Origin: a virus
Taxonomy: Duplodnaviria > Heunggongvirae > Uroviricota > Caudoviricetes
Direction: 5' to 3' (one strand)
DNA: 64,000 nt
IMG/VR virus record: IMGVR_UViG_3300032117_000012
A program made the translations under genes and the position numbers. This document shows, in pieces, positions 1,992 to 59,907 of this stretch. Every line of letters starts with the position of its first letter. Position 1 is the stretch's first letter. The notes under the pieces were generated by a model. It saw only the letters and a program-made list of their open reading frames with translations. It was not told where the DNA came from and ran no database searches.

Positions 1992-2062
1992 GGGGCTACC
2001 GATGGGTCGGGTGGCAGGCTGGCAGTCTACTAACCGGGATTCGATTTCCCGTAGCTCCACCA
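1992..2062 (+). ncRNA. miniature tRNA-like element: 7-bp acceptor-like stem (GGGGCTA/TAGCTCC), canonical T-arm (CGGGA TTCGATT TCCCG), discriminator A and CCA, but no recognisable anticodon arm
   Basis: hand folding; region between acceptor and T-arm is only 36 nt and lacks a 5-7-5 stem-loop. Confidence 0.45.
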
Positions 2063-42715: not shown

Positions 42716-42790
42716 TGGCGAATGCGCTGGGATTCGAACCCAGATTTTCAGTTTTGGAGACTGACGTGTTAAACCATTGATCACTACGCA
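42716..42790 (-). tRNA. tRNA-Trp(CCA)-like; good anticodon arm (TCAGT CTCCAAA ACTGA) and T-arm, CCA encoded, but acceptor/D-stem pairing irregular (possible bulge) - may be atypical or pseudo
   Basis: hand folding of reverse complement. Confidence 0.45.
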
Positions 42791-42876
42791 AACGTGAGGG
42801 CAAGGTTTTTTAAAGAAAAACCCTGCAAGAAAACTTAATCTCTGTATTATACCAGAGCAGCTCTGATGCATGCTAC

Positions 42877-43291: not shown

Positions 43292-43367
43292 TGGTCGGGA
43301 AGACAGGGATCGAACCTGCGACCTGATGCTCCCAAAGCACCCGCTCTACCACCTGAGCTACTTCCCG
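43292..43367 (-). tRNA. tRNA-Pro(TGG), CCA encoded
   Basis: CGGGAAG acceptor, GCTC AGGTGGTAGA GC D-arm, anticodon loop TTTGGGA, T-loop TTCGATC. Confidence 0.8.
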
Positions 43368-43511: not shown

Positions 43512-43593
43512 TGGCACCCTAGGTAGGATTCGAACCCACATGTTAGTTCCAGTTACCTTTCGCTCCGTTCGTAGCGGAGGGGGATACTAGGGC
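43512..43593 (-). tRNA. atypical long tRNA-like gene (82 nt): perfect 7-bp acceptor, canonical T-arm, CCA; internal region has hairpin CTCCG CTACGAA CGGAG (anticodon ACG if read as anticodon arm) but no normal D-arm
   Basis: hand folding; 22-nt unassigned region. Confidence 0.4.
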
Positions 43594-43789
43594 ATTAATT
43601 GGTTGCGGTGTCACGGATTTGCACCGGTTTTCTAGGATATGAGCCTAGTGAGATACTGAACCTCCCACCCGCTATGAAACTCTGTGAAGCCCTTTCAACT
43701 TCTTGGATAGCTCCCTTACCGATAGTCTATCTATGTCATCTTCCCGATGCGGGGCTAAGTTTTTACGGATATTTTCTTAGCATCTAATA

Positions 43790-43864
43790 TGGTACTCGGT
43801 AGTGGGATCGAACCACTGACAACTGCCGTGTAAAAGCAGCACTCTACCGCTGAGTTAACCGAGC
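43790..43864 (-). tRNA. tRNA-Val(TAC), CCA encoded
   Basis: GCTCGGT acceptor; ACTC AGCGGTA GAGT D-arm; anticodon loop TTTACAC; T-loop TTCGATC. Confidence 0.8.
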
Positions 43865-43881
43865 ATTTTTTCAAAATTTTA

Positions 43882-43957
43882 TGGTACGGACGGTGAGGAT
43901 CGAACTCAACACCTACTGGTTGGAAGCCAGTCACGCAAACCACTACGCCACGCCCGC
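43882..43957 (-). tRNA. tRNA-Gly(TCC), CCA encoded
   Basis: GCGGGCG acceptor; anticodon arm ACTGG CTTCCAA CCAGT; T-loop TTCGATC. Confidence 0.75.
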
Positions 43958-44016
43958 ATGTATTTCTAAAGTATATATGTAAATTTATAGGTTGTCAAGT
44001 AATATTTTCAATATTT

Positions 44017-44024
44017 TATAAATA
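44017..44024 (+). promoter_or_regulatory. T4 late-promoter-like TATAAATA upstream of homing endonuclease gene
   Basis: exact octamer 64 nt upstream of candidate start 44088. Confidence 0.3.
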
Positions 44025-44027
44025 ACT

Positions 44028-44792
44028 TTGTGGTTCACGAAGTCCCCACTTCCAACCACCTTAACAGCTTTCAAGGAGCATGTCAACATGATTATTTATC
44101 TCTACGTAAAACAACATTCCATCACAGGATTAAAATATTTTGGAATGACTACTAAATTAAATCCCTTTACTTATAAAGGTTCTGGTAAATATTGGTCAAA
44201 ACATATCAAAAAACATGGTAGAGATTATATTAAAACATTAGATGTTTGGGGATTTGATGACCAAAAGCTTTGTACTGAGTTTGCTTTAAAATTCTCTCGT
44301 GATAATAATATCGTCAATTCTAATCAATGGGCCAACCTTATAGAAGAGATTGGAATTTCTGGAAGAATTAGAGGGCAGTCGGGATCACCAAGAAGCGAAG
44401 AGTGCAGAATAAAAATATCAGAAAAAGCTTTAGGTAGAAAATCTTGGAACAAAGGACTAACTAAAGAAAATGATCCAAGGGTTGCTAAAATATCACAATC
44501 CTTGTCAGGTATAAAGAAAAATTCCGAACATATTGAAAAATTAAAAATTCCTAAATCGGATGAACATAAACAAAAAATAAAAGAAATAATGAATAAAGAT
44601 AAATATAAAAACTTATTAGCAGATAGAGTCAGAGGAATACCAAGAACAGAAGAACAAAAGCATAAACAACGATTGGCTATGATAGGTAGACCCGGAGCAA
44701 ACAAAGGAAAACCTATGTCTGAAGAAAGTAAAAGAAAACTCAGCGAGTCTCAAAAATTAAGAATAGCCAAAAGGAAAGAATTATGTCCATAA
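44028..44792 (+). CDS. GIY-YIG/NUMOD3 homing endonuclease (seg-like, freestanding); likely start at MIIYLYV (44088)
   Basis: IYLYVKQHSITGLKYFGMT GIY-YIG-like start; repeated NUMOD3-type motifs (GRKSWNKGL, GRPGANKGKPMSEESKRKLS). Confidence 0.65.
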   Translation: MWFTKSPLPTTLTAFKEHVNMIIYLYVKQHSITGLKYFGMTTKLNPFTYKGSGKYWSKHIKKHGRDYIKTLDVWGFDDQKLCTEFALKFSRDNNIVNSNQWANLIEEIGISGRIRGQSGSPRSEECRIKISEKALGRKSWNKGLTKENDPRVAKISQSLSGIKKNSEHIEKLKIPKSDEHKQKIKEIMNKDKYKNLLADRVRGIPRTEEQKHKQRLAMIGRPGANKGKPMSEESKRKLSESQKLRIAKRKELCP

Positions 44793-45124
44793 ACAATATT
44801 AATAAAAAAATAGCGGTCACTGCAACTGATTTAATGGGGACCATGGGAACAGTGTATTTTTTCTTTTTTTTAGTTATGATACCATTGGTATTCCCCACAT
44901 TAATGACTCCAATAATGTATATTTCATCGTCTATAATTCAACTTGTTGTCCTTCCTCTTATCATGGTAGGACAACAAGTTCAAGGTGAAAAGACAGAAAT
45001 AAGAGCAATCCAAGATCATGAAACATTGATGGCAGAATTAGCTGAAATCAAAGAAATTCATTCAACTCTCAATCAACTTCATAAGGATAAAGCTGGATGT
45101 GGTTACGTCTCTGTCTCTTCTTGA
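44783..45124 (+). CDS. membrane protein
   Basis: 113 aa with two long hydrophobic segments. Confidence 0.45.
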   Translation: MSINNINKKIAVTATDLMGTMGTVYFFFFLVMIPLVFPTLMTPIMYISSSIIQLVVLPLIMVGQQVQGEKTEIRAIQDHETLMAELAEIKEIHSTLNQLHKDKAGCGYVSVSS

Positions 45125-45681
45125 TCTTAAATATTATTTTATGTAGTAATCCAACATTCGGTCAAACTATAACTGCTGATAGGCCGGGTATTGGTGCGGA
45201 TCCTGAAACTGTTCCACAATATACATTACAACCAGAGATGGGAACTGATTCTAAAGAAATTCGCCTTGGGGTATTAAAAGGATTTGAATTGGATCGAGAT
45301 GACACAAGCTGGGGGGCCAAGGTATCACTAATAGATAATGATACATTTAAATCATCTCTAAAAATATCATATGATGAAACTCTTAAAACTGTGGTAGAAA
45401 TTCCTTCCAATTATACCTACAACAAATGGTTTAATTTAGGAACAGATATTTCTATCTCTAAGACAGTTAAGATATACGCTGGCGAATTTAATTTTACTCC
45501 TACTTCTACCTTAACAATCAGTCCAACTGTATATTTTGATGGTAAACCTAGAGTAGCGGCTTTTGTAGCATGGATACCACTTAAACATCAAAATATACAA
45601 TTCGATATCGGATATGACAAGAAAAAGTTTAGTATTGGAATAAGCACGGCTTTAAATTTCAAAGACATATTTAAAAAATAA
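45097..45681 (+). CDS. secreted beta-rich protein (signal peptide)
   Basis: MWLRLCLFLILNIILCSNPTFGQ signal-like N-terminus. Confidence 0.45.
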   Translation: MWLRLCLFLILNIILCSNPTFGQTITADRPGIGADPETVPQYTLQPEMGTDSKEIRLGVLKGFELDRDDTSWGAKVSLIDNDTFKSSLKISYDETLKTVVEIPSNYTYNKWFNLGTDISISKTVKIYAGEFNFTPTSTLTISPTVYFDGKPRVAAFVAWIPLKHQNIQFDIGYDKKKFSIGISTALNFKDIFKK

Positions 45682-45824
45682 AGGGTTTTTCCTAGCCGGA
45701 ACGCACTCTACCCTTAAACGTTTTATTAACTTGGCTGCGACAACCGGAATTGCACCGATGTTTTCCTAACATAACCTACCCTAGGATTGTAGGTACGCTT
45801 ATTTAGAAGCTTATATCACAAAAT

Positions 45825-46031
45825 TTATTCTTGTTTTTCGGCCATCCAATTTTCTGCAAAATTCATTGCATCTTTTCTTGAAGAAAGATTATATGCAATC
45901 ATTTTATTATCGAATATGAAACTCCAAGTAAGATTTACATTATTACGCACGATATCAATATAGATGTTATTTTTGTAAACACAAAGATCATAATCAGGAT
46001 ACTTCAAATCTTCTTGATTCCAGTCTATCAT
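45825..46031 (-). CDS. hypothetical protein
   Basis: 68-aa ORF. Confidence 0.35.
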   Translation of the reverse strand: MIDWNQEDLKYPDYDLCVYKNNIYIDIVRNNVNLTWSFIFDNKMIAYNLSSRKDAMNFAENWMAEKQE

Positions 46032-46079
46032 AATATTACCCTTCCATTTGTCAAAGTCTGAAACTTATCTGACTTTGGA

Positions 46080-46433
46080 TCATATTCTTCCCAATCTTTT
46101 AGCCCAAGGACCTCTAAATGTCAAGAGAAAAGTAGTACCATTTGAATCAACTTTATGAAAATCTTCTCGTCTAGTTATAAATGGTTTCAAACTTGGTTTA
46201 TGCCAAACCCATCTACCACCTAAAAAAGTTTCTGTCAATCTTCCATAAAGAACCCATGAAAAGCAATTGAATGCATGAGAATGAAACATTTCTCTCGATT
46301 TGCCTTCAAATTTCAAAAGCGCAATTGAAAAAACATTTTTCCATTCTATCAACCAATATCCTGTAACAGTGGATTCTGGACCGCCATCTTTCATAATTTT
46401 AAATAATTTCATATTCCATCCTAACAGCTTCAA
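46080..46433 (-). CDS. hypothetical protein
   Basis: 117-aa ORF. Confidence 0.4.
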   Translation of the reverse strand: MKLLGWNMKLFKIMKDGGPESTVTGYWLIEWKNVFSIALLKFEGKSREMFHSHAFNCFSWVLYGRLTETFLGGRWVWHKPSLKPFITRREDFHKVDSNGTTFLLTFRGPWAKRLGRI

Positions 46434-46680
46434 CCAACTTTCGTCTGTGGGTCTTTCGGGGATTCTGGTTTAATGGAACTACTATAATCCCTTTTTCGTA
46501 ATATAACAGGCTGCGCTGTGCTTAACCGGGACCACCCGCACACCGAATCGAACGGTTCAGACCTCTTGTTCAAAAAAGTATTTTTTAAATGCGGTAATCA
46601 GCCTAATATCACAGGATTGCTTTTGTCCGCTAAGACACCCAAAGTTATAGCGTTTTTATTTGCTGTAACAATCCTAAAAC

Positions 46681-46754
46681 TGGCGACTCTGACGGGACTC
46701 GAACCCGTCTTCACCGGTAGACAGCCGGTGGCCTTCCCTGACGGCAACAGAGCC
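46681..46754 (-). tRNA. tRNA-Asp(GTC), CCA encoded
   Basis: GGCTCTG acceptor; anticodon arm ACCGG CTGTCTA CCGGT; T-arm CGGG TTCGAGT CCCG. Confidence 0.8.
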
Positions 46755-46759
46755 ATTAT

Positions 46760-47002
46760 TTAATATTTAGATAGGTTTCTGATAGGAATTATCTTATCTT
46801 CTCCATCTTTATATGTCACTATTACACATGCCTCGTCGTAATATGTACAAAATTCAGAAATAATAGCCAGTTGACATCCAAATTTATTGGTATTTACTAG
46901 CACCATTTCCCCAACTTCATAGTTCGTTTGGGCATGTCGACCGTGAGTTGGAATTGCATCGATTAGAATTGGTTTCATAAAACTTCTCCTTACCATCTGC
47001 AA
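46760..47002 (-). CDS. hypothetical protein
   Basis: 80-aa ORF. Confidence 0.35.
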   Translation of the reverse strand: MQMVRRSFMKPILIDAIPTHGRHAQTNYEVGEMVLVNTNKFGCQLAIISEFCTYYDEACVIVTYKDGEDKIIPIRNLSKY

Positions 47003-47036
47003 TAAATCATTTTCAACACAAAGTCAACATAAAAAT

Positions 47037-47118
47037 TGGTGGGTAAGTGTGGACTCGAACCACTCCCGGTTAAGGTCAGGTTTTACAGACCGTCTGCTAG
47101 AACCCCTAGCTTTACCTA
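47037..47118 (-). tRNA. degenerate tRNA-like gene (T-arm GTGG TTCGAGT CCAC and ACCA end present; acceptor and anticodon arms do not fold canonically) - probable pseudo-tRNA
   Basis: hand folding. Confidence 0.3.
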
Positions 47119-47128
47119 CACATAAATG

Positions 47129-47204
47129 TGGTGCCTCTCCGAGGTTTCGATCCCCGTTCTTCCGCTCTTCAGGCGGACGCTATGACCACATCAGCTAAAG
47201 AGGC
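47129..47204 (-). tRNA. tRNA-Phe(GAA), CCA encoded
   Basis: GCCTCTT acceptor; GCTG ATGTGGTCA TAGC D-arm; anticodon arm TCCGC CTGAAGA GCGGA; T-loop ATCGAAA. Confidence 0.75.
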
Positions 47205-47219
47205 ACTCTATTAAACCAT

Positions 47220-47289
47220 CCGTAGCATGAGGATTCCTACCCCGCCCAACCAATCTTAGCTATTCAACTATGAATGCCCATCGCTACGG
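47220..47289 (-). ncRNA. tRNA-sized structured element closed by a 7-bp stem CCGTAGC/GCTACGG with internal hairpins; not a canonical tRNA
   Basis: hand folding; no TTCGA T-loop. Confidence 0.25.
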
Positions 47290-47347
47290 TGATGGGTGGC
47301 CTCTTACTCTGTGTTTCGAGTTTCGAACCTCTACACACATATAAAAC

Positions 47348-47422
47348 TGGTCTAGGTGGTGGGTAACGCTCCCACGATCCGGTGGTTCCAAACCACCGTT
47401 TAGCCCTTGCTATCTCACCTAG
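47348..47422 (-). tRNA. atypical tRNA-like gene: 7-bp acceptor CTAGGTG/CACCTAG + ACCA, anticodon arm GGTGG TTTGGAA CCACC (anticodon TGG, Pro), but D-loop only 4 nt and T-loop AGCGTTA non-canonical
   Basis: hand folding on both strands; minus orientation supplies the CCA end. Confidence 0.35.
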
Positions 47423-47430
47423 ATATTATA

Positions 47431-47507
47431 TGGTAGCGATGGAGAGATTCGAACTCACACTGTTCTGGTTCTAAGCCAGTTGTCTCCTGCCGTTGGACTA
47501 CATCGCC
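47431..47507 (-). tRNA. tRNA with anticodon TAG (Leu-CUN) but type-I architecture (5-nt variable loop), discriminator A, CCA encoded
   Basis: GGCGATG acceptor; anticodon arm ACTGG CTTAGAA CCAGA; T-arm GTGAG TTCGAAT CTCTC. Confidence 0.5.
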
Positions 47508-47508
47508 A

Positions 47509-47961
47509 CTATCTTTTTTGTGAATGGCAATTTGGACATAAAAATTGTAAATTTTCAGGTGAGTCATCCCAATGTTTTTCATTGATATGATCAATTTCTA
47601 AAATCAATTTTTTATTATTCCAAAAAGATTCAATTTTACATTCATTACATATTTCTGGTATCCCTAAAGCAATTAATCCATTTCTTAAATGGGATGCTTT
47701 TTGTCTTCCAGAATTTATATCTCTTGTAACTAAGCGTTCGATAGGATTTCTCTTATTTAGAGAGACTTTTCCTTTATTCCAAGCTTGACCAGTCATATGA
47801 GACAAATCAATTTGAAATTTCGAACACACACGCTTTAAATGACTTATGTTGCCTCCGACAGGCCTCTTGTCACATTTCCTCAAAACTTCAGATAAAGACA
47901 TCGAATCTGCTACTATTAAAGCTAATTCATCTTTTTTATAATTATTATATTTTTTATTCAT
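47509..47961 (-). CDS. HNH homing endonuclease
   Basis: C-terminal DHINEKHWDDSPENLQFLCPNCHSQK HNH motif; starts 2 nt after a tRNA. Confidence 0.7.
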   Translation of the reverse strand: MNKKYNNYKKDELALIVADSMSLSEVLRKCDKRPVGGNISHLKRVCSKFQIDLSHMTGQAWNKGKVSLNKRNPIERLVTRDINSGRQKASHLRNGLIALGIPEICNECKIESFWNNKKLILEIDHINEKHWDDSPENLQFLCPNCHSQKR

Positions 47962-48206
47962 TGATTACTCCATTAGTAGAGTAACTATTTATATAATATT
48001 GTATATTTACTAATCTAAAATGATTGATGTTTTCTTGCTACGCCCTTCTAGCTTAGAAAAAGTTTATCAGGCTAACATCAATCATTTTAAATCTGGTTCC
48101 AATATATAGTCACCAGCAACCTTTAAAACACACTTTAAAACACAAAAATAATTACAATATCCAATAAATTAATAAAAATATTAAGTTAGGGCATAATAAC
48201 TTCTCC

Positions 48207-48214
48207 TATTTATA
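48207..48214 (-). promoter_or_regulatory. T4 late-promoter-like TATAAATA on minus strand in a 480-nt noncoding region
   Basis: plus-strand tatttata. Confidence 0.25.
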
Positions 48215-48344
48215 AAAGAATTCGTATTAAGATTTAGCTAGAATATATTATATTGCATTTATTGTCAAGAGAAAATTTCAGTGTACAGAAACTTTCAAAC
48301 TCTATCTCGGAGCGACCGAACATTCTCCCCCTAGGGAGCTTACT

Positions 48345-48420
48345 GGTGGACCATCTCGGGTTCGAACCGAGGACATACGGATTAAAAGTCCGCCACTCTA
48401 CCTACTGAGTTAATGGTCCA
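48345..48420 (-). tRNA. tRNA-Lys(TTT), CCA encoded
   Basis: GGACCAT acceptor; ACTC AGTAGGTA GAGT D-arm; anticodon arm GCGGA CTTTTAA TCCGT; T-arm CTCGG TTCGAAC CCGAG. Confidence 0.8.
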
Positions 48421-48450
48421 ATTAACTGTTCAAACGGCTGTAGACAAAAC

Positions 48451-48699
48451 TTAATTTGTCTTAACTTGTCTTAAATATTCCAACACTTCTTCTTCAGTAT
48501 CATATACTTTGATATGTGTCAAAGGATTTCTTAGTGCTACATGAATTTTAGACCCAAATTTACGGATTATTCCATATCCTTCAAATCTTCCTTCACCAGC
48601 TTGTCTATTATTCCAACGAGTCCTATACCTATAGGGAAAAGGTTCGCTATTATAGTCTACATTCAATATTTCTGCACATTTTTGATAAAAACTTTTCAT
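48451..48699 (-). CDS. hypothetical protein
   Basis: 82-aa ORF. Confidence 0.35.
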   Translation of the reverse strand: MKSFYQKCAEILNVDYNSEPFPYRYRTRWNNRQAGEGRFEGYGIIRKFGSKIHVALRNPLTHIKVYDTEEEVLEYLRQVKTN

Positions 48700-48730
48700 A
48701 CCAATTATATAGTATAGTTTTTATATTATG

Positions 48731-48934
48731 TCAAGATAAAAGTTCAATTTCATCTTCATTACAAGGACATGTAACATGATCAAAAAAAACGTTTTTATCA
48801 TCAAATAGTACATCATATGGCCAACGAGTTGTGTTAACTATACCTACAATAGTCCCAGCTCTTGTTGTTGCTCCTTCGAAATTGTAGGAACATTTTTTGG
48901 TGGCTATGATTTTATCTCCTACTTTAAATTTCAC
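48731..48934 (-). CDS. hypothetical protein
   Basis: 67-aa ORF. Confidence 0.35.
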   Translation of the reverse strand: MKFKVGDKIIATKKCSYNFEGATTRAGTIVGIVNTTRWPYDVLFDDKNVFFDHVTCPCNEDEIELLS

Positions 48935-48936
48935 GA

Positions 48937-49641
48937 TTACGCTGCCTTTTTGAAGAGGAAAAAGCTTTCGTGCTGTGGATAATTATCCACAAATTTACGA
49001 GCATAATATGAAATATGGTTATTGCTAATCTTGAAATCTGGGATATCCCAACGAATTCGTTCAACAATGGTCTTAGGTGAAATAGTTGTGTGACCACGAT
49101 TCATCGCACGAAATGCATACGACTTAAAGAGAGTATACACATATGGATTCTCAGTGTCAAACTTTGTAAAGCTTTCAACCAAAGAATTATCTTTAGTGGC
49201 ATTCGCTGGCTCTTGTGCTGTAGGTGTTTCTACAGGTGACGATACAGCTTCAACCAATACAAGATCATTCTCATCAAAAGCTCCACGCCCCTTAAAGGAG
49301 TCAACACAAGTATAGGCATACTTATCGCCTGCCCATACCTTGTATACTGTCATATTCTTCCAAATGGGATACTTAATAGAACTGACCTTATCACCAACCT
49401 GAAACTTAGTTGGGGTTACCTTTGGTTCTTCGATTTTCTGAGGAACGAGAAAGATTTCATCTAGTGCAAACAGAGTTGCACTATAACTTGAATGAGTTCC
49501 TACCAACTTTGCTCGAATTGGATATGGTCGGCCATTTAGAACTTCCATAACTTCCAAATCTTTGTCAGCCAAATCAGAAAATGGATATTTACCATTTTGC
49601 TTCGTCTGACGCACAATATCACCAATCTTATAATAAACCAT
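48937..49641 (-). CDS. hypothetical protein (234 aa)
   Basis: long ORF. Confidence 0.5.
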   Translation of the reverse strand: MVYYKIGDIVRQTKQNGKYPFSDLADKDLEVMEVLNGRPYPIRAKLVGTHSSYSATLFALDEIFLVPQKIEEPKVTPTKFQVGDKVSSIKYPIWKNMTVYKVWAGDKYAYTCVDSFKGRGAFDENDLVLVEAVSSPVETPTAQEPANATKDNSLVESFTKFDTENPYVYTLFKSYAFRAMNRGHTTISPKTIVERIRWDIPDFKISNNHISYYARKFVDNYPQHESFFLFKKAA

Positions 49642-49707
49642 AATATATTCTCCGTTTCAATATGAGGGCATTATACCCTGTTTAATAACTCTTGTCAACT
49701 CTTTTTT

Positions 49708-49779
49708 TGGTGGCTGGTAGTGGATTCGAACCACTCTGAGAGGCTTATGAAACCTCTTTAATCACCAGATCGACCAGCC
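49708..49779 (-). tRNA. tRNA-Met(CAT) (elongator-type G1-C72 pair; could be Ile2/lysidine type), CCA encoded; D-arm short
   Basis: GGCTGGT acceptor; anticodon arm GAGGT TTCATAA GCCTC; T-arm AGTGG TTCGAAT CCACT. Confidence 0.6.
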
Positions 49780-50000
49780 ATTGTGTTTTTAATCTTAGAT
49801 TGTTCTATAACCAAATCAAGTTTATTTCGAAGGTTAATTGCATCAATTATTACCTGAAAATCCCCTCCTGCTATAGGTTTATTATTTTCAATTATATCAT
49901 ATGCATCTTTTTGATAATCCATAAGAGATATCTGTAGTTGTGTCATAAGTTTAGTAATAACTCGACCATCAACCCATGTTACGGTATTAGTCCTTTTCAT
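49758..50000 (-). CDS. hypothetical protein
   Basis: 80-aa ORF. Confidence 0.35.
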   Translation of the reverse strand: MKRTNTVTWVDGRVITKLMTQLQISLMDYQKDAYDIIENNKPIAGGDFQVIIDAINLRNKLDLVIEQSKIKNTMAGRSGD

Positions 50001-50016
50001 AATATAAAACCTTTAA

Positions 50017-50041
50017 TGGTGCCGATGGTTAGATTCGAAAC
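50017..50041 (-). repeat. isolated tRNA 3' fragment (T-loop TTCGAAT, T-stem 3' strand CTAAC, acceptor 3' strand CATCGGC, A, CCA) without matching 5' half
   Basis: reverse complement GTTTCGAATCTAACCATCGGCACCA. Confidence 0.45.
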
Positions 50042-50057
50042 ACATATATAGTTGCGG

Positions 50058-50128
50058 TGCCCCCAGAAGGAATCGAACCCTCGTGTCCAACTTACAAGAT
50101 TGGCAGTCTACCATTGACTTATAGGGGC
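50058..50128 (-). tRNA. tRNA-Thr(TGT), CCA not fully encoded (ACCG)
   Basis: GCCCCTA acceptor; AGTC AATGGTA GACT D-arm; anticodon arm CCAAT CTTGTAA GTTGG; T-arm GAGGG TTCGATT CCTTC. Confidence 0.75.
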
Positions 50129-50169
50129 ATTATGACTATAATGAGATATAAATTATATTAGGAGTATAT

Positions 50170-50829
50170 ATGTATACAAATAAATGCATAACATGTCAAG
50201 AAAATTTTACCGTAAATAGAGACTCTAGGAAAAGAAAGTATTGCAATTCATGCAAAGAAAAACAACCCAAACCCTCTACTTCTAAGACCTGTAAAAATTG
50301 TCAGAAAAATTTTGCAACCCCGACATATCATCAAAGGGTAAAAATATTCTGCTCGCATTCTTGTTCTGCTGAATTTAATAATAAATTAAGATCAAAGAAT
50401 ATGGTACAAAAATTAAAGACAAATATTGTTAAGAAAAACATTGAGCCACAATTTTGTATTTTATGTAATACTAAAGTAAAGTTTAAAAAATCGAAATATT
50501 GTTCTAAAAATTGTGAACTGACACATAAAAAGAAAATAAAACTAGACAAATTTGAAAAAGGTGAATTATCTTCCAAATTGGCTAAAGATATTCTCTTAGA
50601 GAATCACGGTAACATATGCTTGAATACAACTTGCGCATGGGATTTCACAAAGAAATTTGTCAGTGTTGAACTTGAACATATAGATGGTAACTCAGAAAAT
50701 AATTTACCAGAAAATTTGACCTTACTATGCCCAAACTGCCATTCTTTAACGTCAACTTATAAAGCTAAAAATAAAGGAAATGGTAGATCTGTCAGAATGG
50801 AAAGATATTATTCTGGTAAAAGTTATTGA
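50170..50829 (+). CDS. HNH homing endonuclease with N-terminal CxxC zinc-finger repeats
   Basis: C-terminal NLTLLCPNCHSLTS HNH motif; multiple CxxC pairs. Confidence 0.7.
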   Translation: MYTNKCITCQENFTVNRDSRKRKYCNSCKEKQPKPSTSKTCKNCQKNFATPTYHQRVKIFCSHSCSAEFNNKLRSKNMVQKLKTNIVKKNIEPQFCILCNTKVKFKKSKYCSKNCELTHKKKIKLDKFEKGELSSKLAKDILLENHGNICLNTTCAWDFTKKFVSVELEHIDGNSENNLPENLTLLCPNCHSLTSTYKAKNKGNGRSVRMERYYSGKSY

Positions 50830-50912
50830 AAGGTTGGTACGGGCGACAGGACTCGAACCTGCATGAGTAAAACTCGGGAAATTTTAAGTCTCCGGTGTCT
50901 ACCAAATTCCAC
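50826..50912 (-). tRNA. tRNA-Leu(TAA), type II with variable stem-loop, CCA encoded
   Basis: GCGGGCG acceptor; anticodon arm GGAGA CTTAAAA TTTCC; variable arm GAGT TTTA CTC; T-arm GCAGG TTCGAGT CCTGT. Confidence 0.7.
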
Positions 50913-51114
50913 CACGCCCGCAAAATAATGTTTAATTAAAAGGATGAAAAAATGTTTTTTCTTTCCCGCAATGAGAACATTTATAATCCATAAACGTTCC
51001 ATGGTTATTTGAATTATCTTCAATATTTTCTGATACAGTTGTATTATTATACAACCAATCATGAAAACCCAATTTACATAGAATATTCTTAATCATAATA
51101 TAAAACCTTTTAAC

Positions 51115-51199
51115 TGGTGCCCTGAGTGAGACTTGAACTCACATTCCCGAAGGATCCAAATTTTGAATCTGGTGCGTCTACCAATTCCACCATCAGGGC
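51115..51199 (-). tRNA. tRNA-Leu(CAA), type II, CCA encoded
   Basis: GCCCTGA acceptor; anticodon arm CCAGA TTCAAAA TTTGG; variable arm TCC TTCG GGA; T-arm GTGAG TTCAAGT CTCAC. Confidence 0.75.
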
Positions 51200-51333
51200 A
51201 TTCAACTTATATAGGACAGTTTTTATAATGTGTCAATCATTATTTTATATAAGTGGTTAATCCACATATAAAAATCCCTATCAAATACCGTGGTAGATAT
51301 ATCTGATAGGGATTTAAAAGTCAATACTAATTT

Positions 51334-52551
51334 TTAGTGATTGATGCGAATAATTCCATCATGATCTACTTTATTTGCAAAATGTCCTGCGGCTTCGTTT
51401 TTAACGCCTTTTAAGCGTAAACCAGATACAACACCATGTCCAGCTTTACCGAGCGTTCTACCAGCTTGTGCGTGACGATCAAAGGTATTATCATCATGAT
51501 CCCCGTTTACGATAGGGTATCTACGGCCAGATTTCACATCTTCAACATGAGTAGGATTTGGAACATCCTTACCCCTGTGATAAACCATAGCCACTGTATG
51601 TCCACCTTCCAATTTCTTAACTGATTCATGATCGTTTGATTCAGCATGTCCTGTCCCTGTATGCGAAAGTGTAAGATGATAATTTTCAGGCGTTTTAGGA
51701 TGGCCGACACGGTTAGGAATTTTTGTGTAATCATAAAATTGGGCACCCGGATGACGCTTAAAAAGTTGCGGAGCATGATGTTCCCATGAAATATCCGAAG
51801 TAACATTCATACGAACTCCCGGTTTATATCCCTTCTTTGTTGCTGCCTTAACGTGATTACCAATTTCATGATCAATTAATCGTCCAGCATGTTCAGGATG
51901 CATTGCCAAATAATGTGTTCTCAAAACTTTGGCCGATAATGCTGCGTCTGGATATTGTTTATTTCCACCAGCTTCTGTACCCAAGCAATTTGCACGGCAT
52001 TCTTTAGAAGCACGAGGGCAAACATCAAACTTATGAAGACCATTAGTTGCGTGTGGTGCTAAAGAAAGTCCTTTTGTATGAACCATCTCACCTGTGGATT
52101 TCTTAGTCTTACCATTTTCACCTAGCATAGATGGACCAGTTTTATATCCACGACTTTGGGCAAAAGAATTCCAATGAGCCTTTGATTCTTTAAGTTTTGC
52201 ACTAGATTGTGAAGGAGATTCGTGTTCCATCGATTCAAACGTATGACGAAGTTTTTGCCCCATTGTCTTATGTACATTTGCCCCATCAGGAAGCTCAGAA
52301 TTGCCCTGTTGAATAAGGGCACGAGTCTTAGGTAAATTCATAGACTTATGAGCAAACTTTTCAACATCGACATCTTCAAAAATGCTGCCAAACATTTTAT
52401 CATCCACGCCTTCATGCATAGATCCTGTGTGCATAGATGGATCGGAAGGACTACTTACATGGAATAAAAAGTCATGAAGACACTTATTGGTGATTAATGG
52501 ATGTTCGCTGACAGCCATTGCTTCAGCCAAAAATGAGGTAAAAGTTTTCAT
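51334..52551 (-). CDS. internal head protein-like, His-rich 405-aa protein with T4-type capsid targeting sequence at N-terminus
   Basis: N-terminal MKTFTSFLAEA parallels the T4 internal protein (IPIII/Alt) leader MKTYQEFIAEA, including the L-x-E prohead-protease cleavage context. Confidence 0.5.
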   Translation of the reverse strand: MKTFTSFLAEAMAVSEHPLITNKCLHDFLFHVSSPSDPSMHTGSMHEGVDDKMFGSIFEDVDVEKFAHKSMNLPKTRALIQQGNSELPDGANVHKTMGQKLRHTFESMEHESPSQSSAKLKESKAHWNSFAQSRGYKTGPSMLGENGKTKKSTGEMVHTKGLSLAPHATNGLHKFDVCPRASKECRANCLGTEAGGNKQYPDAALSAKVLRTHYLAMHPEHAGRLIDHEIGNHVKAATKKGYKPGVRMNVTSDISWEHHAPQLFKRHPGAQFYDYTKIPNRVGHPKTPENYHLTLSHTGTGHAESNDHESVKKLEGGHTVAMVYHRGKDVPNPTHVEDVKSGRRYPIVNGDHDDNTFDRHAQAGRTLGKAGHGVVSGLRLKGVKNEAAGHFANKVDHDGIIRINH

Positions 52552-52744
52552 AGTTTAAAATATCCCTGTTGATGTTGTACTTATTCTATTTAGGGTTTAT
52601 GGTGCTTCCAAACGGTCCCGATCCGTAAACCTATTTCTAGGTTCCCTTTGTTTAGCAAACAAGGACAGCCACCCGACTGCTCTACCTTCCATTGACTTAT
52701 ATATCGGTCATTAAATGCCTTTATGCCTCATATAGCAGTCATTA

Positions 52745-52834
52745 TGGCGGAACCGGTGGGATTCGAACCCACGGACCCCGTAAAGGGTCGCCACCTTTCC
52801 AAGATGGTGCCTTAGACCGCTCGGCCACAGTTCC
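52745..52834 (-). tRNA. tRNA-Ser(GGA), type II, CCA encoded
   Basis: GGAACTG acceptor; GCC GAGCGGTCTAA GGC D-arm; anticodon arm CCATC TTGGAAA GGTGG; long variable arm GACCC TTTAC GGGGTC; T-arm GTGGG TTCGAAT CCCAC. Confidence 0.75.
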
Positions 52835-52959
52835 AGTTATAACTTAAAATATTTACCGCACTTTAATCTGTAACTAATAGTTTGATTACTTACACTATTC
52901 TCCGAGAATTACTAATAGATTTACGTTATCTACTATTTAGTAATTCTCGGAGTTCTATG

Positions 52960-53046
52960 AGGAAGGCGGGTGGTGTCGATCCCCACACCCGTTAAGGTGC
53001 CACTAGTTTTCAAGACTAGGCTGTAGGCCGCTACAGTTCACCTTCC
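52960..53046 (-). tRNA. tRNA-Ser(TGA)-like type-II gene with non-canonical T-arm and no encoded CCA (opposite-strand reading would give anticodon TCA)
   Basis: GGAAGGT/GCCTTCC acceptor; D-arm CTGT AGCGGCCT ACAG; anticodon arm CTAGT CTTGAAA ACTAG; T-region GTGGG GATCGAC ACCAC poorly paired. Confidence 0.4.
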
Positions 53047-53114: not shown

Positions 53115-53735
53115 TTACATAGTTGGGCCATTACCATTTTTAAACCCAATTTCTCCGCCTTGATCAATAATGGCCTGACATACATCATCAAACAGCATAG
53201 GTTTGAATTCCGTATGCTCGGCAGATACACAAAAATATCTTGGATCTATTCCTTCTTTATAAAAGGTCTGATATCCAAAACTTCCACCGGGACCATCTAG
53301 TTCTTTGTATGGAACTTTCGTCATAACCCTGTTAGAATGAAGATGACCATGTATATTACATCCGAACCTTCCAAGAGACTCAGCATGAATTGGGATATGA
53401 GATAGAATCAACCCATTCATTACATGGTAACCACGAATATCATAAAAATACGGAGTATAATCAGTCAATTTAAAAATATCATGATTGCCCTTGATCAAAA
53501 CCTTCTTTCCATTCAGTTTACCAAATGTAGACAGATGTTTACGACCAATAACCGCATCTCCTAGTACATAAACTTTATCGTTATCTTGAACTGTATCATT
53601 CCACAGTTCAATCATAGCAATATCCATCTCTTCCGCCGAATTCCAAGGCCGAATGGGGTTACCATTTTTATCTGTAAAAACACACATATTGTTATGTCCA
53701 AAATGTGTATCAGCGATTAGAAATGTTCTACTCAT
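53115..53735 (-). CDS. calcineurin-like metallophosphoesterase (candidate 3'-phosphatase/2',3'-cyclic phosphodiesterase of an end-healing system)
   Basis: DTHFGH, GDAV, GNHD, GHLH metallophosphatase motifs. Confidence 0.7.
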   Translation of the reverse strand: MSRTFLIADTHFGHNNMCVFTDKNGNPIRPWNSAEEMDIAMIELWNDTVQDNDKVYVLGDAVIGRKHLSTFGKLNGKKVLIKGNHDIFKLTDYTPYFYDIRGYHVMNGLILSHIPIHAESLGRFGCNIHGHLHSNRVMTKVPYKELDGPGGSFGYQTFYKEGIDPRYFCVSAEHTEFKPMLFDDVCQAIIDQGGEIGFKNGNGPTM

Positions 53736-53916
53736 ATTTATTCCTTACAAATGATCCATTAAAATATCCGACCATTTTTCAATTATTTCATCTCTGATAT
53801 CATCGTCAAGATCGTTCCATTCATCTCCGATACCTTTACGAGATTCCAAATCTTTAACAATGGCCTCTGCCGCTTCTCTATACGAAGCAATATCATTTGT
53901 CAACATCCTTGACTCC

Positions 53917-54384
53917 TCAAACATAAGAAATTTTAGAAAAACCTTCTTCCATCATGGGATGTTGAAAATTCATCGCCATAGATTCCAAAACATGTTTTGG
54001 AATTGTCTTACCGAGACGAGAATCCAACCTACGCTGCCATTCTTCTTTATCTGGAACAGGAAATACAACAGCCTTAAAATTATATCCAAATGGTTTCAAA
54101 ATATCGATAATTCTTTTCCGAGACTTCACCGAAAGATTAGTACGATCAATGTAGATATCAGACCCAGCTTCAGCTAACTTAGCCAGACGATTAAACATGG
54201 TTTTCTCAGCAAACCCTATAAGATCTTTAAATGCTGCATCATATGTCATCATATAGGTATTAGCAATATCTTCAATAATTCGATCTGTAGAAACAACAAA
54301 GGTATTAAAATCTTTCTGTGCATCAACCCAAGTGGATTTACCGGATCCGGGAACGCCGACTAAAAAAGTACATTTACGCATCAT
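53917..54384 (-). CDS. polynucleotide 5'-kinase, T4 Pnk kinase-domain homologue (P-loop)
   Basis: VGVPGSGKSTW Walker A identical in T4 Pnk (GCPGSGKSTW); IYIDRTNL parallels Pnk ISDTNL. Confidence 0.7.
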   Translation of the reverse strand: MMRKCTFLVGVPGSGKSTWVDAQKDFNTFVVSTDRIIEDIANTYMMTYDAAFKDLIGFAEKTMFNRLAKLAEAGSDIYIDRTNLSVKSRKRIIDILKPFGYNFKAVVFPVPDKEEWQRRLDSRLGKTIPKHVLESMAMNFQHPMMEEGFSKISYV

Positions 54385-54551
54385 CAGATCCTTTCTTCTT
54401 AAAAGTATACTTCAATTTTGGAACAACAACCATTTGTTGAGTTTCATTATAATAAGGATTAACCGAAACTCCAACCAATTCCCAACCTTCTCGTTTATGC
54501 CATGCCAGAGTTTCAGGAGAAAGTCCAGTTTTAACTGTCAAAATATTATAA

Positions 54552-55688: not shown

Positions 55689-55799
55689 AATGTGTGTGAT
55701 AATTTTTCACATATACTGAGACTAATTCCCATCCATCCGCTCCATATCTATTCATTGTAGCTTCAGACATTTCAACAAAATTTAAATATTGAAATGTCT

Positions 55800-56647: not shown

Positions 56648-56779
56648 GCTAGAACTCCCACTCGAATGGTGGGAGGTTGACGATGATCGCTCGGAAGACG
56701 TTCCTTCTAAAATAGGAAAAGATTTAATAGATTTTATAATATCATGCTTTCTACATTAAAGATTATACACATACTTCGT

Positions 56780-59715: not shown

Positions 59716-59907
59716 TTAATTTAAAACAATTTCAGAAAGAAGCACATATCCATGAACACTAGGAAGTGCCTTATATTCATATAGATGGTAAAGAATGGAA
59801 TTGTAGTTTGTGATAATTCCGGGAATAATTTGGTATCCGAGGGCGGTAACGCTCCACCGTCTATGAATTATCAGTTCATTGCTCTACTTTTGAGCTACAC
59901 GGATATC

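What the first reader, a model, noticed from the sequence alone, without database searches (positions are those of the whole stretch)
43512..53046. Several tRNA-sized genes with intact acceptor/T-arm/CCA but aberrant D or anticodon arms inside the array
Six loci fold only partially.
- 43512-43593: perfect acceptor and T-arm, CCA, but no D-arm and a 22-nt unassigned segment.
- 47037-47118: T-arm and CCA only.
- 47220-47289: 7-bp closed hairpin element.
- 47348-47422: Pro-like anticodon TGG with a 4-nt D-loop and AGCGTTA T-loop.
- 52960-53046: Ser-like type II with poor T-arm; the opposite strand would read anticodon TCA.
- 42716-42790: Trp-like with irregular acceptor.
- They may be decaying pseudogenes, but conservation of acceptor plus CCA hints at processed small RNAs with non-decoding roles (tRNA-like stable RNAs, decoys for anticodon nucleases, or RNase P/Z processing signals).
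- The Ser-like gene's possible UGA-reading anticodon on the opposite strand is worth a specific check.
Basis: seen in the sequence. Interest (0 to 1): 0.6.

Follow-up and report, generated by a model that had tools for sequence, protein, structure and literature searches.

The report
Odd phage tRNAs, including rewired tRNA-Arg
The six odd loci are a mixed set of unusual phage tRNA genes, and one of them belongs to a large, apparently undescribed phage family of arginine tRNAs that lack the normal cloverleaf D-arm but are conserved in a way that points to real decoding.

Summary
All tRNAs of the array lie on the minus strand, and read that way the six loci are not one class.

- **42716-42793:** ordinary tRNA-Trp(CCA) with two U·U mismatches in the acceptor stem.
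- **43512-43593:** a standard member of a phage-borne family of non-cloverleaf tRNA-Arg. There is no D-arm 5' of the anticodon arm. The anticodon stem is extended by a covarying helix, and a D-loop-like UAAYUGGA sits 3' of it. About 160 unique relatives carry Arg anticodons, apart from a few parsing errors and one odd loop. ARAGORN misses most of them, and the copies checked in cultured phage records are unannotated.
- **47348-47422:** tRNA-Pro(UGG) of an "alternative elbow" class (T-loop AGCGUUA plus an AAG D-loop). The class is shared by tRNA-Ile(GAU) at 59831-59904 and by 118 unique viral tRNAs covering most anticodons.
- **52959-53046:** a Sec-like, (8/4)-type tRNA-Ser with anticodon UGA (it reads UCA). 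This kind is already known from phages. This copy is atypical: one extra nucleotide in the T-stem and no encoded CCA. The "UGA-reading anticodon on the opposite strand" idea fails.
- **47037-47118** (Tyr-like) cannot form a proper acceptor or anticodon stem. **47220-47289** is a stable hairpin. Both are lineage-specific and stay unresolved; they are probably fossils.

The parts
43512..43593 (-). Non-cloverleaf tRNA-Arg(ACG), 'type B', 82 nt. Acceptor 43593-43587 / 43522-43516; UAU 43586-43584; helix P 5' CC 43583-43582; anticodon stem 43579-43575 / 43567-43563; loop CUACGAA 43574-43568 (anticodon 43572-43570); CGAAA 43562-43558; helix P 3' GG 43557-43556; D-loop-like UAACUGGA 43555-43548; linker ACUAACAU 43547-43540; T-arm 43539-43523; discriminator G 43515; CCA 43514-43512.
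   Evidence: Sequence. Model R1 scores it 51.2 bits, E 1.4e-9. It falls in the commonest type B group, CCC/AGG.
47348..47422 (-). tRNA-Pro(UGG) with the alternative elbow: D-arm UAGC-AAGG-GCUA, 6-bp anticodon stem, T-arm GUGGG-AGCGUUA-CCCAC, ACCA.
   Evidence: Cloverleaf MFE with z = -4.05. Called by ARAGORN at -ps90. Class membership.
52959..53046 (-). Sec-like / (8/4)-type tRNA-Ser(UGA): 8-bp acceptor GGAAGGUG/CGCCUUCC, 6-bp D-stem CUGUAG/CUACAG with loop CGGC, anticodon loop CUUGAAA, 6-bp variable arm, T-stem GGGG/CC(A)CC with one extra nucleotide, T-loop AUCGACA, discriminator U, no CCA.
   Evidence: RF01852 47.9 bits. MFE. ARAGORN -ps90. Comparison with 12 (8/4) Ser tRNAs.
42716..42793 (-). 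tRNA-Trp(CCA), canonical cloverleaf, with U2·U71 and U3·U70 in the acceptor, G73 and CCA.
   Evidence: ARAGORN default. RF00005 47.2 bits. Sequence.
47037..47118 (-). Tyr-like (GUA loop) degenerate tRNA: D hairpin GCUAG-GGGUU-CUAGC, 3-bp anticodon stem, 4-bp T-stem, ACCA, and an acceptor with a mismatch and a bulge.
   Evidence: Sequence. Fold z = +0.78. No ARAGORN or Rfam call. No relatives beyond identical contigs.
47220..47289 (-). Stable irregular hairpin closed by CCGUAGC/GCUACGG (extendable to 47216-47295). No CCA and no anticodon-like loop.
   Evidence: MFE -24.9 kcal/mol, z = -3.33. No Rfam match.
59831..59904 (-). tRNA-Ile(GAU) of the same alternative-elbow class (D-loop AAAAGUA, T-loop AGCGUUA). 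It lies outside the finding but explains the Pro-like locus.
   Evidence: RF00005 52.4 bits. Missed by ARAGORN. Sequence.
43597..43673 (-). Met-like (CAU loop) weak tRNA-like element 6 nt upstream of the Arg gene: A1·A72, a bulged acceptor, T-loop UGCAAAU.
   Evidence: RF00005 15 bits. ARAGORN -mt.

Best explanation
The six loci are a mixed set of non-canonical phage tRNA genes on the minus strand. They are not one class of non-decoding RNAs.

**The Arg locus (43512-43593).** This is the key one: a tRNA-Arg(ACG) with a rewired core.
- The acceptor stem and T-arm are canonical, and CCA is encoded.
- There is no D-arm before the anticodon arm. A short helix (P) extends the anticodon stem instead.
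- The D-loop sequence (UAAYUGGA, with the GG and an A in the place of A20) follows the anticodon arm.
- In the 83-nt sister type A, a second helix (positions 9-11 with 47-49) closes over both elements.

**Inferred mechanism for the Arg locus.**
- The RNA is cut out of the array transcript through its normal acceptor/T-arm minihelix.
- It folds into an L-shape. The displaced GG docks on the normal T-loop, and U8 and the U before the T-stem keep their usual partners.
- ArgRS charges it through C35/G36 and the A after GG.
- It reads CGU/CGC/CGA, the commonest Arg codons of this phage.

**The other loci.**
- 47348-47422 is a tRNA-Pro(UGG) that decodes with an alternative elbow: T-loop AGCGUUA paired with an AAG D-loop.
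- 52959-53046 is an (8/4)-like tRNA-Ser(UGA), possibly impaired.
- 42716-42793 is a working tRNA-Trp.
- 47037-47118 and 47220-47289 are most likely fossils of tRNA turnover in the array.

**Shown:** the sequences, helices, covariation, anticodon restriction and distribution. **Inferred:** processing, 3D fold, charging and decoding.
For: **Type A family (83 nt), 79 distinct sequences.**
- 96.8% of cells are paired, against 63% in shuffles and 45% or less when slid. The covariation score is 0.92 against 0.23.
- Pair 10:48 reads GC 46, AU 28, UA 3, CG 1.
- Pair 11:47 reads CG 47, UA 18, AU 8.
- Pair 13:37 reads GC 63, AU 9, CG 5 (smaller set).

**Type B family, 64 unique sequences including the window copy.**
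- Helix P pair 1 is 100% Watson-Crick (CG 38, GC 11, UA 10, AU 5).
- Pair 2 is 98% Watson-Crick.
- The paired fraction is 0.79, against 0.42 in shuffles.
- The window's UAUCCCC...GAAAGG-UAACUGGA arrangement recurs in 10 unique members. One of them, L457, has an identical anticodon arm.

**Anticodons.**
- Type A: UCU 66, ACG 14, UCG 6, CCU 4. The rest are parsing errors plus one odd loop.
- Type B: ACG 25, UCU 21, UCG 13, CCU 4, CCG 1.

**Scores and context.**
- Model R1 scores the window copy 51.2 bits. The best ordinary tRNA scores 41.5 or less.
- Arrays L170 (25 tRNAs) and L185 (14 tRNAs) have no canonical Arg tRNA, only these.
- The same search pattern gave 17 true members among 20 viral hits, but 1 among 16 hits in 185,579 genomes.
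- CGU is the top Arg codon in the window, 105 of 311.

**Alternative elbow class.**
- 126 of 138 pattern hits are tRNA-shaped, giving 118 unique sequences that cover most anticodons.
- D-loops contain [A/U]AG in 81% and GG in 12%. All 797 canonical tRNAs have GG in that region.

**Ser locus.** RF01852 scores 47.9 bits, and (8/4) tRNA-Ser is known from phage clusters.
Against: - There are no expression, end-mapping or aminoacylation data for any of these RNAs.
- The window copy is of type B, where only two pairs of helix P are proven. The third is usually C·A, and a closing helix could not be demonstrated, partly because my search pattern fixed the AU before the T-stem.
- RF00005 does not recognise the window copy at all.
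- Some phages carry canonical Arg tRNAs beside the odd ones, for example L172 and L181, so the odd ones are not always needed as decoders.
- The Ser locus differs from all 12 (8/4) comparators: it has an extra nucleotide at the T-stem and lacks CCA.
- The Tyr-like locus and the hairpin have no comparators at all.
- The literature library is incomplete, so the Arg family may have been described somewhere I could not search.
Confidence: 0.7

Rival explanations
1. All six loci are decaying tRNA pseudogenes left by duplication and turnover in a phage tRNA array. Their acceptor/T-arm/CCA halves simply decay more slowly.
For: - The Tyr-like locus folds no better than shuffles and is called by no program.
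- The Met-like neighbour scores only 15 bits.
- The Ser locus has an extra nucleotide and no CCA, unlike its 12 relatives.
- Further fossil-like fragments lie between the genes.
- The array is interspersed with homing endonucleases.
Against: - The Arg locus matches a family of about 160 unique sequences, with compensatory changes in every helix and anticodons restricted to Arg.
- The Pro locus is a perfect cloverleaf (z = -4.05). Its odd T-loop and D-loop recur together in 118 unique viral tRNAs.
- Trp passes all standard tests.
Confidence: 0.1
2. The odd RNAs are stable tRNA mimics that do not decode. They act as decoys or sponges for host anticodon nucleases or other tRNA-targeting defences; the Arg-type hairpin would serve as bait for an Arg-specific nuclease.
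For: - A tRNA repair-like module sits beside the array: an Rnl1-like ligase, a kinase and metallophosphatases. This suggests pressure from host tRNA nucleases.
- Some phages carry canonical Arg tRNAs next to the odd ones.
- A decoy would also keep an Arg anticodon loop.
Against: - In L170 and L185 the odd genes are the only Arg tRNAs in otherwise broad sets.
- The family keeps everything a decoder needs and a loop decoy would not: a 7-bp acceptor, the discriminator, frequent CCA, a canonical T-loop, GG plus an A20-like A, U8 and a U48-like U.
- Isoacceptor diversity (five Arg anticodons) tracks codon families rather than one nuclease target.
Confidence: 0.15
3. The poorly folding elements (Tyr-like, hairpin, Met-like) persist because they serve as RNase P / RNase Z / RNase E punctuation that releases the neighbouring tRNAs and small ORFs from the polycistronic transcript.
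For: - They sit 6-15 nt from real tRNAs and keep acceptor/T-arm-like minihelices or a strong hairpin.
Against: - They show no conservation beyond identical contigs.
- Nothing distinguishes this idea from neutral fossils.
- It does not apply to the Arg, Pro, Ser or Trp loci.
Confidence: 0.05

Closest known systems
D-arm-lacking mitochondrial tRNAs (metazoan mt-tRNA-Ser(AGY), nematode mt-tRNAs; PMC4013460, PMC7609411)
   Same: There is no D-arm 5' of the anticodon arm. The molecule is a three-way junction of acceptor, anticodon arm and T-arm, with connector regions.
   Different: - The phage Arg family keeps a canonical T-loop and a D-loop-like UAAYUGGA (GG plus A) placed 3' of the anticodon arm.
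- It extends the anticodon stem with a covarying helix.
- It is confined to Arg and occurs in phages of bacteria, not in organelles with co-evolved factors.
(8/4) tRNA-Ser / allo-tRNA group (Mukai et al., NAR 2017, PMC5389517)
   Same: Locus 52959-53046 shares these features: an 8-bp acceptor, a 4-bp T-stem, a long D-stem with a tetraloop, a long variable arm, U73, a Ser anticodon, and a location in a phage tRNA cluster.
   Different: The window copy has one extra nucleotide in or next to the T-stem 3' strand and no encoded CCA. All 12 comparators are exact 8/4 with CCA.
tRNA-Sec (Rfam RF01852)
   Same: A 6-bp D-stem with a 4-nt loop, a long acceptor and a long variable arm. The score of 47.9 bits just passes the gathering score of 47.
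   Different: The anticodon is UGA (Ser), not UCA. The T-loop is not canonical. ORFs in the window show no sign of UGA recoding.
Canonical bacterial and phage tRNA (Rfam RF00005)
   Same: Acceptor stem, T-arm, anticodon arm with U33, and CCA. The genes sit in a tRNA array.
   Different: The D-arm is absent or transposed in the Arg family. The elbow nucleotides are replaced in the AGCGUUA class. [quoted passage not shown]
Eukaryotic initiator tRNA T-loop (A54-A58; PMC7912444)
   Same: A natural precedent for replacing U54 in the T-loop while keeping an L-shape. The window's Phe (AUCGAAA) and Ser (AUCGACA) T-loops resemble it.
   Different: The AGCGUUA loop also replaces residues 55 and 58. It co-occurs with loss of GG in the D-loop. 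That review does not mention this combination.

Membership tests
Canonical tRNA (RF00005), for 43512-43593 | 7-bp acceptor, discriminator, T-arm of 5 bp with a UUCRANY loop | tested here: met
   GCCCUAG/CUAGGGU, G73, CCA, GUGGG-UUCGAAU-CCUAC
Canonical tRNA (RF00005), for 43512-43593 | D-arm between the acceptor and the anticodon arm | tested here: not met
   Only 7 nt (UAUCCCC) separate the acceptor from the anticodon stem
Canonical tRNA (RF00005), for 43512-43593 | Score at or above the gathering score of 29 bits | tested here: not met
   No RF00005 match at E<=10 on 321 nt. Only 14.4 bits on RF01852
Non-cloverleaf phage tRNA-Arg family (defined here), for 43512-43593 | Helix P: the nucleotides after UAU pair with those just before UAAYUGGA | tested here: met
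   CC/GG. The same CCC/AGG arrangement occurs in 10 unique members. The family pairs are 100% and 98% Watson-Crick with all four pair types
Non-cloverleaf phage tRNA-Arg family (defined here), for 43512-43593 | D-loop-like UAAYUGGA 3' of the anticodon arm, and a U before the T-stem | tested here: met
   UAACUGGA at 43555-43548 and ...CAU before GUGGG
Non-cloverleaf phage tRNA-Arg family (defined here), for 43512-43593 | Arg anticodon in a 7-nt loop with U33 | tested here: met
   CUACGAA, anticodon ACG. The family has ACG, UCU, UCG, CCU and CCG only
Non-cloverleaf phage tRNA-Arg family (defined here), for 43512-43593 | Closing helix 9-11 / 47-49 (type A) | tested here: inconclusive
   Proven in type A (98.7% paired, two covarying pairs). 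In the window copy G10 is missing, which leaves A9-U and U-A with a bulged C. In type B no covariation could be shown
Non-cloverleaf phage tRNA-Arg family (defined here), for 43512-43593 | Charged with arginine and used on the ribosome | not testable with these tools
   Needs tRNA-seq, acid gels or in vitro ArgRS assays
(8/4) tRNA-Ser / allo-tRNA (PMC5389517), for 52959-53046 | 8-bp acceptor stem | tested here: met
   GGAAGGUG/CGCCUUCC with one G·U
(8/4) tRNA-Ser / allo-tRNA (PMC5389517), for 52959-53046 | 4-bp T-stem directly abutting the acceptor (12-bp branch) | tested here: inconclusive
   GGGG/CC(A)CC needs a bulged A, or GGGG/CCAC with a G·A mismatch plus an extra C. All 12 comparators lack the extra nucleotide
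(8/4) tRNA-Ser / allo-tRNA (PMC5389517), for 52959-53046 | Long D-stem with a tetraloop, a long variable arm, G73 or U73 | tested here: met
   CUGUAG-CGGC-CUACAG, a 6-bp variable arm, U73
tRNA-Sec (RF01852), for 52959-53046 | Anticodon UCA reading UGA | tested here: not met
   The loop is CUUGAAA, so the anticodon is UGA
UGA suppressor tRNA on the + strand, for 52959-53046 | A tRNA fold on the + strand with anticodon UCA | tested here: not met
   No tRNA or Sec match on the + strand at E<=10. ARAGORN finds none even at 80% thresholds. Stops in the window are TAA 21, TGA 6, TAG 0
Alternative-elbow tRNA class (defined here), for 47348-47422 | T-loop AGCGUUA on a 5-bp stem, followed by a 7-nt acceptor strand and NCCA | tested here: met
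   GUGGG-AGCGUUA-CCCAC-CACCUAG-A-CCA
Alternative-elbow tRNA class (defined here), for 47348-47422 | D-loop with [A/U]AG in place of GG | tested here: met
   The D-loop is AAGG. AAGN tetraloops occur 12 times in the class, and [A/U]AG is found in 95 of 117 D-loops
D-arm-lacking mitochondrial tRNA, for 43512-43593 | Organellar origin and loss of the D-loop/T-loop contact | tested here: not met
   It lies in a phage array and retains GG and a canonical T-loop

The most novel reading that the evidence does not exclude
Phages of bacteria carry a widespread, so far undescribed class of functional arginine tRNAs with a non-cloverleaf topology. The anticodon arm is nested inside what would be the D-stem, and the D-loop is moved to its 3' side. 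Bacterial ArgRS, EF-Tu and ribosomes would accept these tRNAs. A second class replaces the universal G18-G19 / T54-Psi55 elbow with an A-G / A54-G55...U58 elbow. The window carries one gene of the first class and two of the second.
Probability: 0.5. Interest if true: 0.9.

Novelty: new variant of a known kind. Interest (0 to 1): 0.8.

Why it matters
**For tRNA biology.**
- The cloverleaf with a 5' D-arm is treated as universal outside mitochondria. A 2024 paper states that all known bacterial tRNAs are canonical (PMC11551756).
- A natural family of rewired tRNA-Arg working in bacterial cells would show that bacterial ArgRS, RNase P, EF-Tu and the ribosome tolerate a different core topology. 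The family is covariation-proven and restricted to phages.
- It would give synthetic biologists a ready-made orthogonal scaffold.

**For phage biology.** It opens a testable question: do phages rewire tRNA cores and elbows to escape host tRNA-targeting defences? Cultured carriers exist, including Pseudomonas phages IME180 and Bitten.

**For annotation.** Standard tools miss these genes. ARAGORN misses 148 of 159, and the copies checked in GenBank phage records are unannotated. Phage tRNA repertoires, and the codon-usage arguments built on them, are therefore incomplete.

Tried and rejected
- **Synteny.** Relatives found through GP88 (L001-L006) and the metallophosphatase (L087-L166) have tRNA arrays, but blastn finds no homologues of the six loci.
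- **Near-identical contigs.** L081-L086 are 100% identical at the loci they cover, so they give no information.
- **Self-match.** An exact-match scan for the Ser locus in IMG/VR found nothing.
- **Metagenome scan.** It was wasted on a Phe T-arm 17-mer that proved generic: 120 unrelated hits and no relatives.
- **Neighbouring ORFs.** The 80-aa and 234-aa ORFs have no diverged homologues. The Tyr-like locus and the hairpin therefore could not be compared with anything.
- **A variable-arm hairpin in type A (AUU...AAU).** Rejected, because variation at columns 42-43 is not compensated (alignment).
- **ARAGORN's occasional 'cloverleaf' for family members.** Rejected as an artefact. It shifts the acceptor upstream and uses the true 5' acceptor strand as a D-arm.
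- **GGAAC-containing ordinary tRNAs.** For example the L088 tRNA-His; excluded from the family.
- **Reading the Ser locus on the + strand.** Rejected.
- **Literature search by sequence string.** It returned only primer matches.
- **Cultured phages with the window's Pro and Ile genes.** blastn found no match.

Full report
**Orientation and inventory.**
ARAGORN finds 19 tRNAs in the window, 18 of them on the minus strand between 42716 and 63591. Rfam agrees and adds one more at 59834-59904. All six flagged loci therefore have to be read on the minus strand.

The array is interspersed with HNH and NUMOD3 homing endonucleases. The phage has no close relative among deposited phages. It has near-identical contigs in JGI and Logan assemblies and relatives at 50-76% protein identity in IMG/VR, on contigs of up to 405 kb.

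A simple scan for '7-bp acceptor + 5-bp T-stem + NCCA' gives 18 hits in the window, against 0-1 in shuffles.

**Locus by locus.**
- **42716-42793** is tRNA-Trp(CCA) by ARAGORN default and scores 47.2 bits on RF00005. Its only oddity is two U·U mismatches in the acceptor.
- **47348-47422** folds as a perfect cloverleaf (MFE -32.1 kcal/mol, z = -4.05) with anticodon UGG. ARAGORN calls it at 90% thresholds, while RF00005 gives nothing.
- **52959-53046** matches the tRNA-Sec model at 47.9 bits. ARAGORN at 90% calls it tRNA-Ser(UGA).
- **43512-43593** has a perfect acceptor, a canonical T-arm, GCCA and a perfect hairpin CUCCG-CUACGAA-CGGAG only 7 nt after the acceptor. It has no D-arm.
- **47037-47118** cannot form a good acceptor or anticodon stem (z = +0.78).
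- **47220-47289** is a strong hairpin (z = -3.3) without tRNA features.

**The Arg locus belongs to a large family.**
A look-alike in L018 led to a pattern scan of IMG/VR. That scan returned 17 true relatives among 20 hits. Two broader scans followed.

Type A is 83 nt, with 95 unique sequences. Its layout runs in this order:
1. the 5' strand of the acceptor stem;
2. U8, then A9-N10-N11;
3. C12-N-N, then one nucleotide;
4. the anticodon arm;
5. UAA, then N-N-G38;
6. UAAYUGGA;
7. N47-N48-U49;
8. GAAAAU;
9. the T-arm, the 3' strand of the acceptor stem, and the discriminator base.

On 79 distinct sequences the proposed structure is 96.8% paired, against 63% in shuffles and 45% or less when slid by 1-3 columns. 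The covariation score is 0.92 against 0.23 (smaller set).
- The closing helix 9-11/47-49 is 98.7% paired and covaries. Pair 10:48 reads GC 46, AU 28, UA 3, CG 1. Pair 11:47 reads CG 47, UA 18, AU 8.
- As sequence, the combinations are UAGC/GCU 35, UAAC/GUU 19, UAGU/ACU 12, UAAU/AUU 7, UAGA/UCU 5, and others.
- Helix P (12-14/36-38) also covaries.

The anticodon arm and the D-loop-like bulge are therefore enclosed by a helix whose 5' strand follows U8 directly. That is not a cloverleaf.

Type B is 78-83 nt, with 64 unique sequences including the window copy. Its layout is: acceptor, UAU, helix P, anticodon arm, (A/U)GAAA, helix P, UAAYUGGA, 5-9 nt, T-arm.
- The first two P pairs are 100% and 98% Watson-Crick, with all four pair types.
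- The paired fraction is 0.79, against 0.42 in shuffles (maximum 0.51 in 1000 shuffles).
- The window's arrangement (UAUCCCC ... CGAAAGG UAACUGGA) is the commonest sort, and L457 has the identical anticodon arm.
- A covariance model built from type A alone scores the window copy 51.2 bits (E 1.4e-9), above every ordinary tRNA in 1.3 Mb (41.5 bits or less).

**Identity and distribution.**
- Anticodons are UCU 66, ACG 14, UCG 6, CCU 4 in type A, and ACG 25, UCU 21, UCG 13, CCU 4, CCG 1 in type B. Apart from a few parsing errors and one odd loop (L397), none is non-Arg.
- The genes lie inside phage tRNA arrays. In L170 (25 tRNAs called) and L185 (14 called) no canonical tRNA-Arg is called. The odd genes supply two and three Arg isoacceptors respectively.
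- The same pattern found only one true member among 16 hits in 185,579 species-representative genomes, on a 19-kb MAG contig.
- Cultured phages carry the family: Pseudomonas phages IME180 (95.1 bits), Bitten (64.3 bits), vB_PaeM_Ty, HHBS10_2 and Boevelstad, and Maribacter phage Panino. In these records the locus is unannotated or overlapped by a 'hypothetical protein'.
- ARAGORN default of 95 type A and 2 of 64 type B elements. When it does, it may force a false cloverleaf.
- RF00005 scores the IME180 copy 41.7 bits by deleting the D-arm and inserting 20 nt in the variable region.

**How it probably works (inference).**
- The conserved single-stranded nucleotides map onto the canonical tertiary set. 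U8 is invariant. UAAYUGGA offers an A14-like and an R15-like A, G18-G19, and an A right after GG, where A20 (the D-loop identity element for ArgRS, from established knowledge) would lie. The nucleotide before the T-stem is an invariant U even in the scan that left it free, like U48 of an A15·U48 Levitt pair.
- The T-loop is canonical. The molecule can therefore plausibly form an L-shape. One stack would be acceptor/T-arm. The other would be a long stack of closing helix, helix P and anticodon stem. The bulged 'D-loop' would dock on the T-loop.
- All family anticodons keep C35, the ArgRS anticodon determinant. This explains why the anticodon wanders only within the Arg box if the RNA must be charged.
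- In the window's 27 long ORFs, CGU (105), CGA (43) and CGC (20) make up 54% of Arg codons. No other Arg tRNA is present in the 64 kb.

**The Pro-like locus and the alternative elbow.**
Its T-loop AGCGUUA also occurs in the window's tRNA-Ile(GAU) at 59831-59904.
- 126 of 138 matches are tRNA-shaped, giving 118 unique sequences.
- The anticodons cover Ile, Met, Tyr, Lys, Asn, His, Gln, Trp, Val, Gly, Cys, Phe, Pro, Glu, Asp, Ser, Ala and Thr, plus a CUA suppressor.
- Their D-loops contain [A/U]AG in 95 of 117 and GG in only 14. All 797 canonical tRNAs from the related loci have GG in that region.
- AAGN tetraloops like the window's AAGG occur 12 times.

This looks like a coordinated replacement at the elbow: G18 to A, Psi55 to G, and U54·A58 to A54...U58, with G19-C56 kept. 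That reading is inferred, not shown. The locus is best read as a second, alternative-elbow tRNA-Pro(UGG) beside the canonical one at 43292-43367.

**The Ser-like locus.**
On its own strand the anticodon is UGA.
- **Features:** an 8-bp acceptor, a 6-bp D-stem with a tetraloop, a long variable arm and U73. These are the features of the (8/4) tRNA-Ser / allo-tRNA group, which Mukai et al. found in phage tRNA clusters (PMC5389517).
- **Relatives:** my descriptor scan found such Ser tRNAs (anticodons UGA, GGA, GCU, CGA) in many viral loci.
- **Deviations:** the window copy differs from all 12 comparators by one extra nucleotide at the T-stem (GGGG/CC(A)CC). It also lacks CCA, although two other tRNAs of the array lack CCA as well.
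- **Verdict:** it may work or may be decaying; I put this at about even. It would be the array's only reader of UCA and UCG (111 + 50 codons).
- **Suppressor idea:** the idea of a UGA suppressor on the + strand is rejected.

**Unresolved loci and context.**
- The Tyr-like locus and the hairpin have no relatives beyond identical contigs. The spacer next to them holds another T-arm-like fragment. They are most simply fossils.
- The Met-like element at 43597-43673 is weak as well.
- Beside the array lie an Rnl1-like RNA ligase, a kinase and two metallophosphatases. This suggests pressure from host tRNA nucleases. It keeps the decoy hypothesis alive as a minority view.

**Comparison with what is known, and novelty.**
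- **Already known:** the Ser locus is a divergent member of a known kind, and Trp is ordinary.
- **Arg family:** it works like a tRNA but fails the defining cloverleaf feature. Its nearest analogues are D-arm-lacking mitochondrial tRNAs, which lack the retained GG / T-loop elements.
- **Literature:** I found no description of the Arg family or the AGCGUUA/AAG elbow in the searchable literature. A 2024 paper states that all known bacterial tRNAs are canonical.
- **Caveats:** the library is incomplete, no experiment supports function, and parts of the family consensus were fixed by my search patterns.

Noticed in passing
window 59831-59904 (-): tRNA-Ile(GAU) with T-loop AGCGUUA and D-loop AAAAGUA. 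Rfam scores it 52.4 bits, but ARAGORN default misses it.
   Followed up: yes
window 1992-2062 (+): A 71-nt tRNA-Ala-like minihelix (G3·U70, A73, CCA, canonical T-arm) lies 92 nt after tRNA-Ala(UGC). A hairpin CCGA-UGGG-UCGG follows the acceptor directly, and there is no proper anticodon arm. No program calls it.
   Followed up: partly
window 43597-43673 (-) and 45732-45820 (-): Two more CCA-ended tRNA-like elements with T-loops UGCAAAU and UGCAAUU (G at position 55) and D regions without GG. The first has a CAU loop and an A1·A72 mismatch, like the initiator-type Met tRNAs seen in the AGCGUUA class.
   Followed up: partly
window 53115-58632 (-): A tRNA repair-like gene set lies next to the array: an Rnl1-like RNA ligase (57820-58632), metallophosphatases (56780-57580, 53115-53735), an AAA_33 kinase (53917-54384) and an ATP-dependent ligase (54552-55688).
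   Followed up: partly
window 49708-49779 (-): tRNA-Met(CAU) of 72 nt with a very short D region. ARAGORN calls it, but RF00005 scores it below 27.5 bits.
   Followed up: no
window 47290-47347 (-): The spacer between the Pro-like gene and the hairpin contains GUGUGUAGAGGUUCGAAACUCGAAACACAG. It looks like the fossil of a T-arm plus an acceptor strand.
   Followed up: no
L091, L095, L104, L121, L123, L124, L130, L133-L135, L140, L141, L156 (coordinates): tRNA-Ile(UAU) genes of 90-96 nt with an inserted variable-region hairpin that carries a conserved CCAGAUUAGCG-like motif. They recur in the arrays of the related jumbo-phage contigs.
   Followed up: no
L240, L295, L298, L299, L302 (coordinates): A group of tRNA-Tyr(GUA)-like genes with an 8-bp acceptor, a 4-bp T-stem and an AGCGUUA T-loop. 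A covarying helix (CCAUAC/GUAUGG, CCGGUC/GAUCGG, CCCGCC/GGUGGG) encloses the anticodon arm and is followed by GGAAGU. This is the same nesting principle as in the Arg family.
   Followed up: partly
L101, L147, L158, L164, L185, L216 (CUA); L128 (UUA): Suppressor-type tRNAs (anticodons CUA and UUA) occur in related viral arrays. None was found in the window.
   Followed up: no
L397 (type A Arg-family member): One family member has the loop CCUGUAA. It lacks U33, and the anticodon positions read UGU. It is the only clear departure from Arg anticodons.
   Followed up: no
PV037721 (Pseudomonas phage Bitten), L188 2497-2576: The record's tRNA numbering skips tRNA0007 exactly where the unannotated Arg-family element lies. 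A prediction there may have been discarded during annotation.
   Followed up: no
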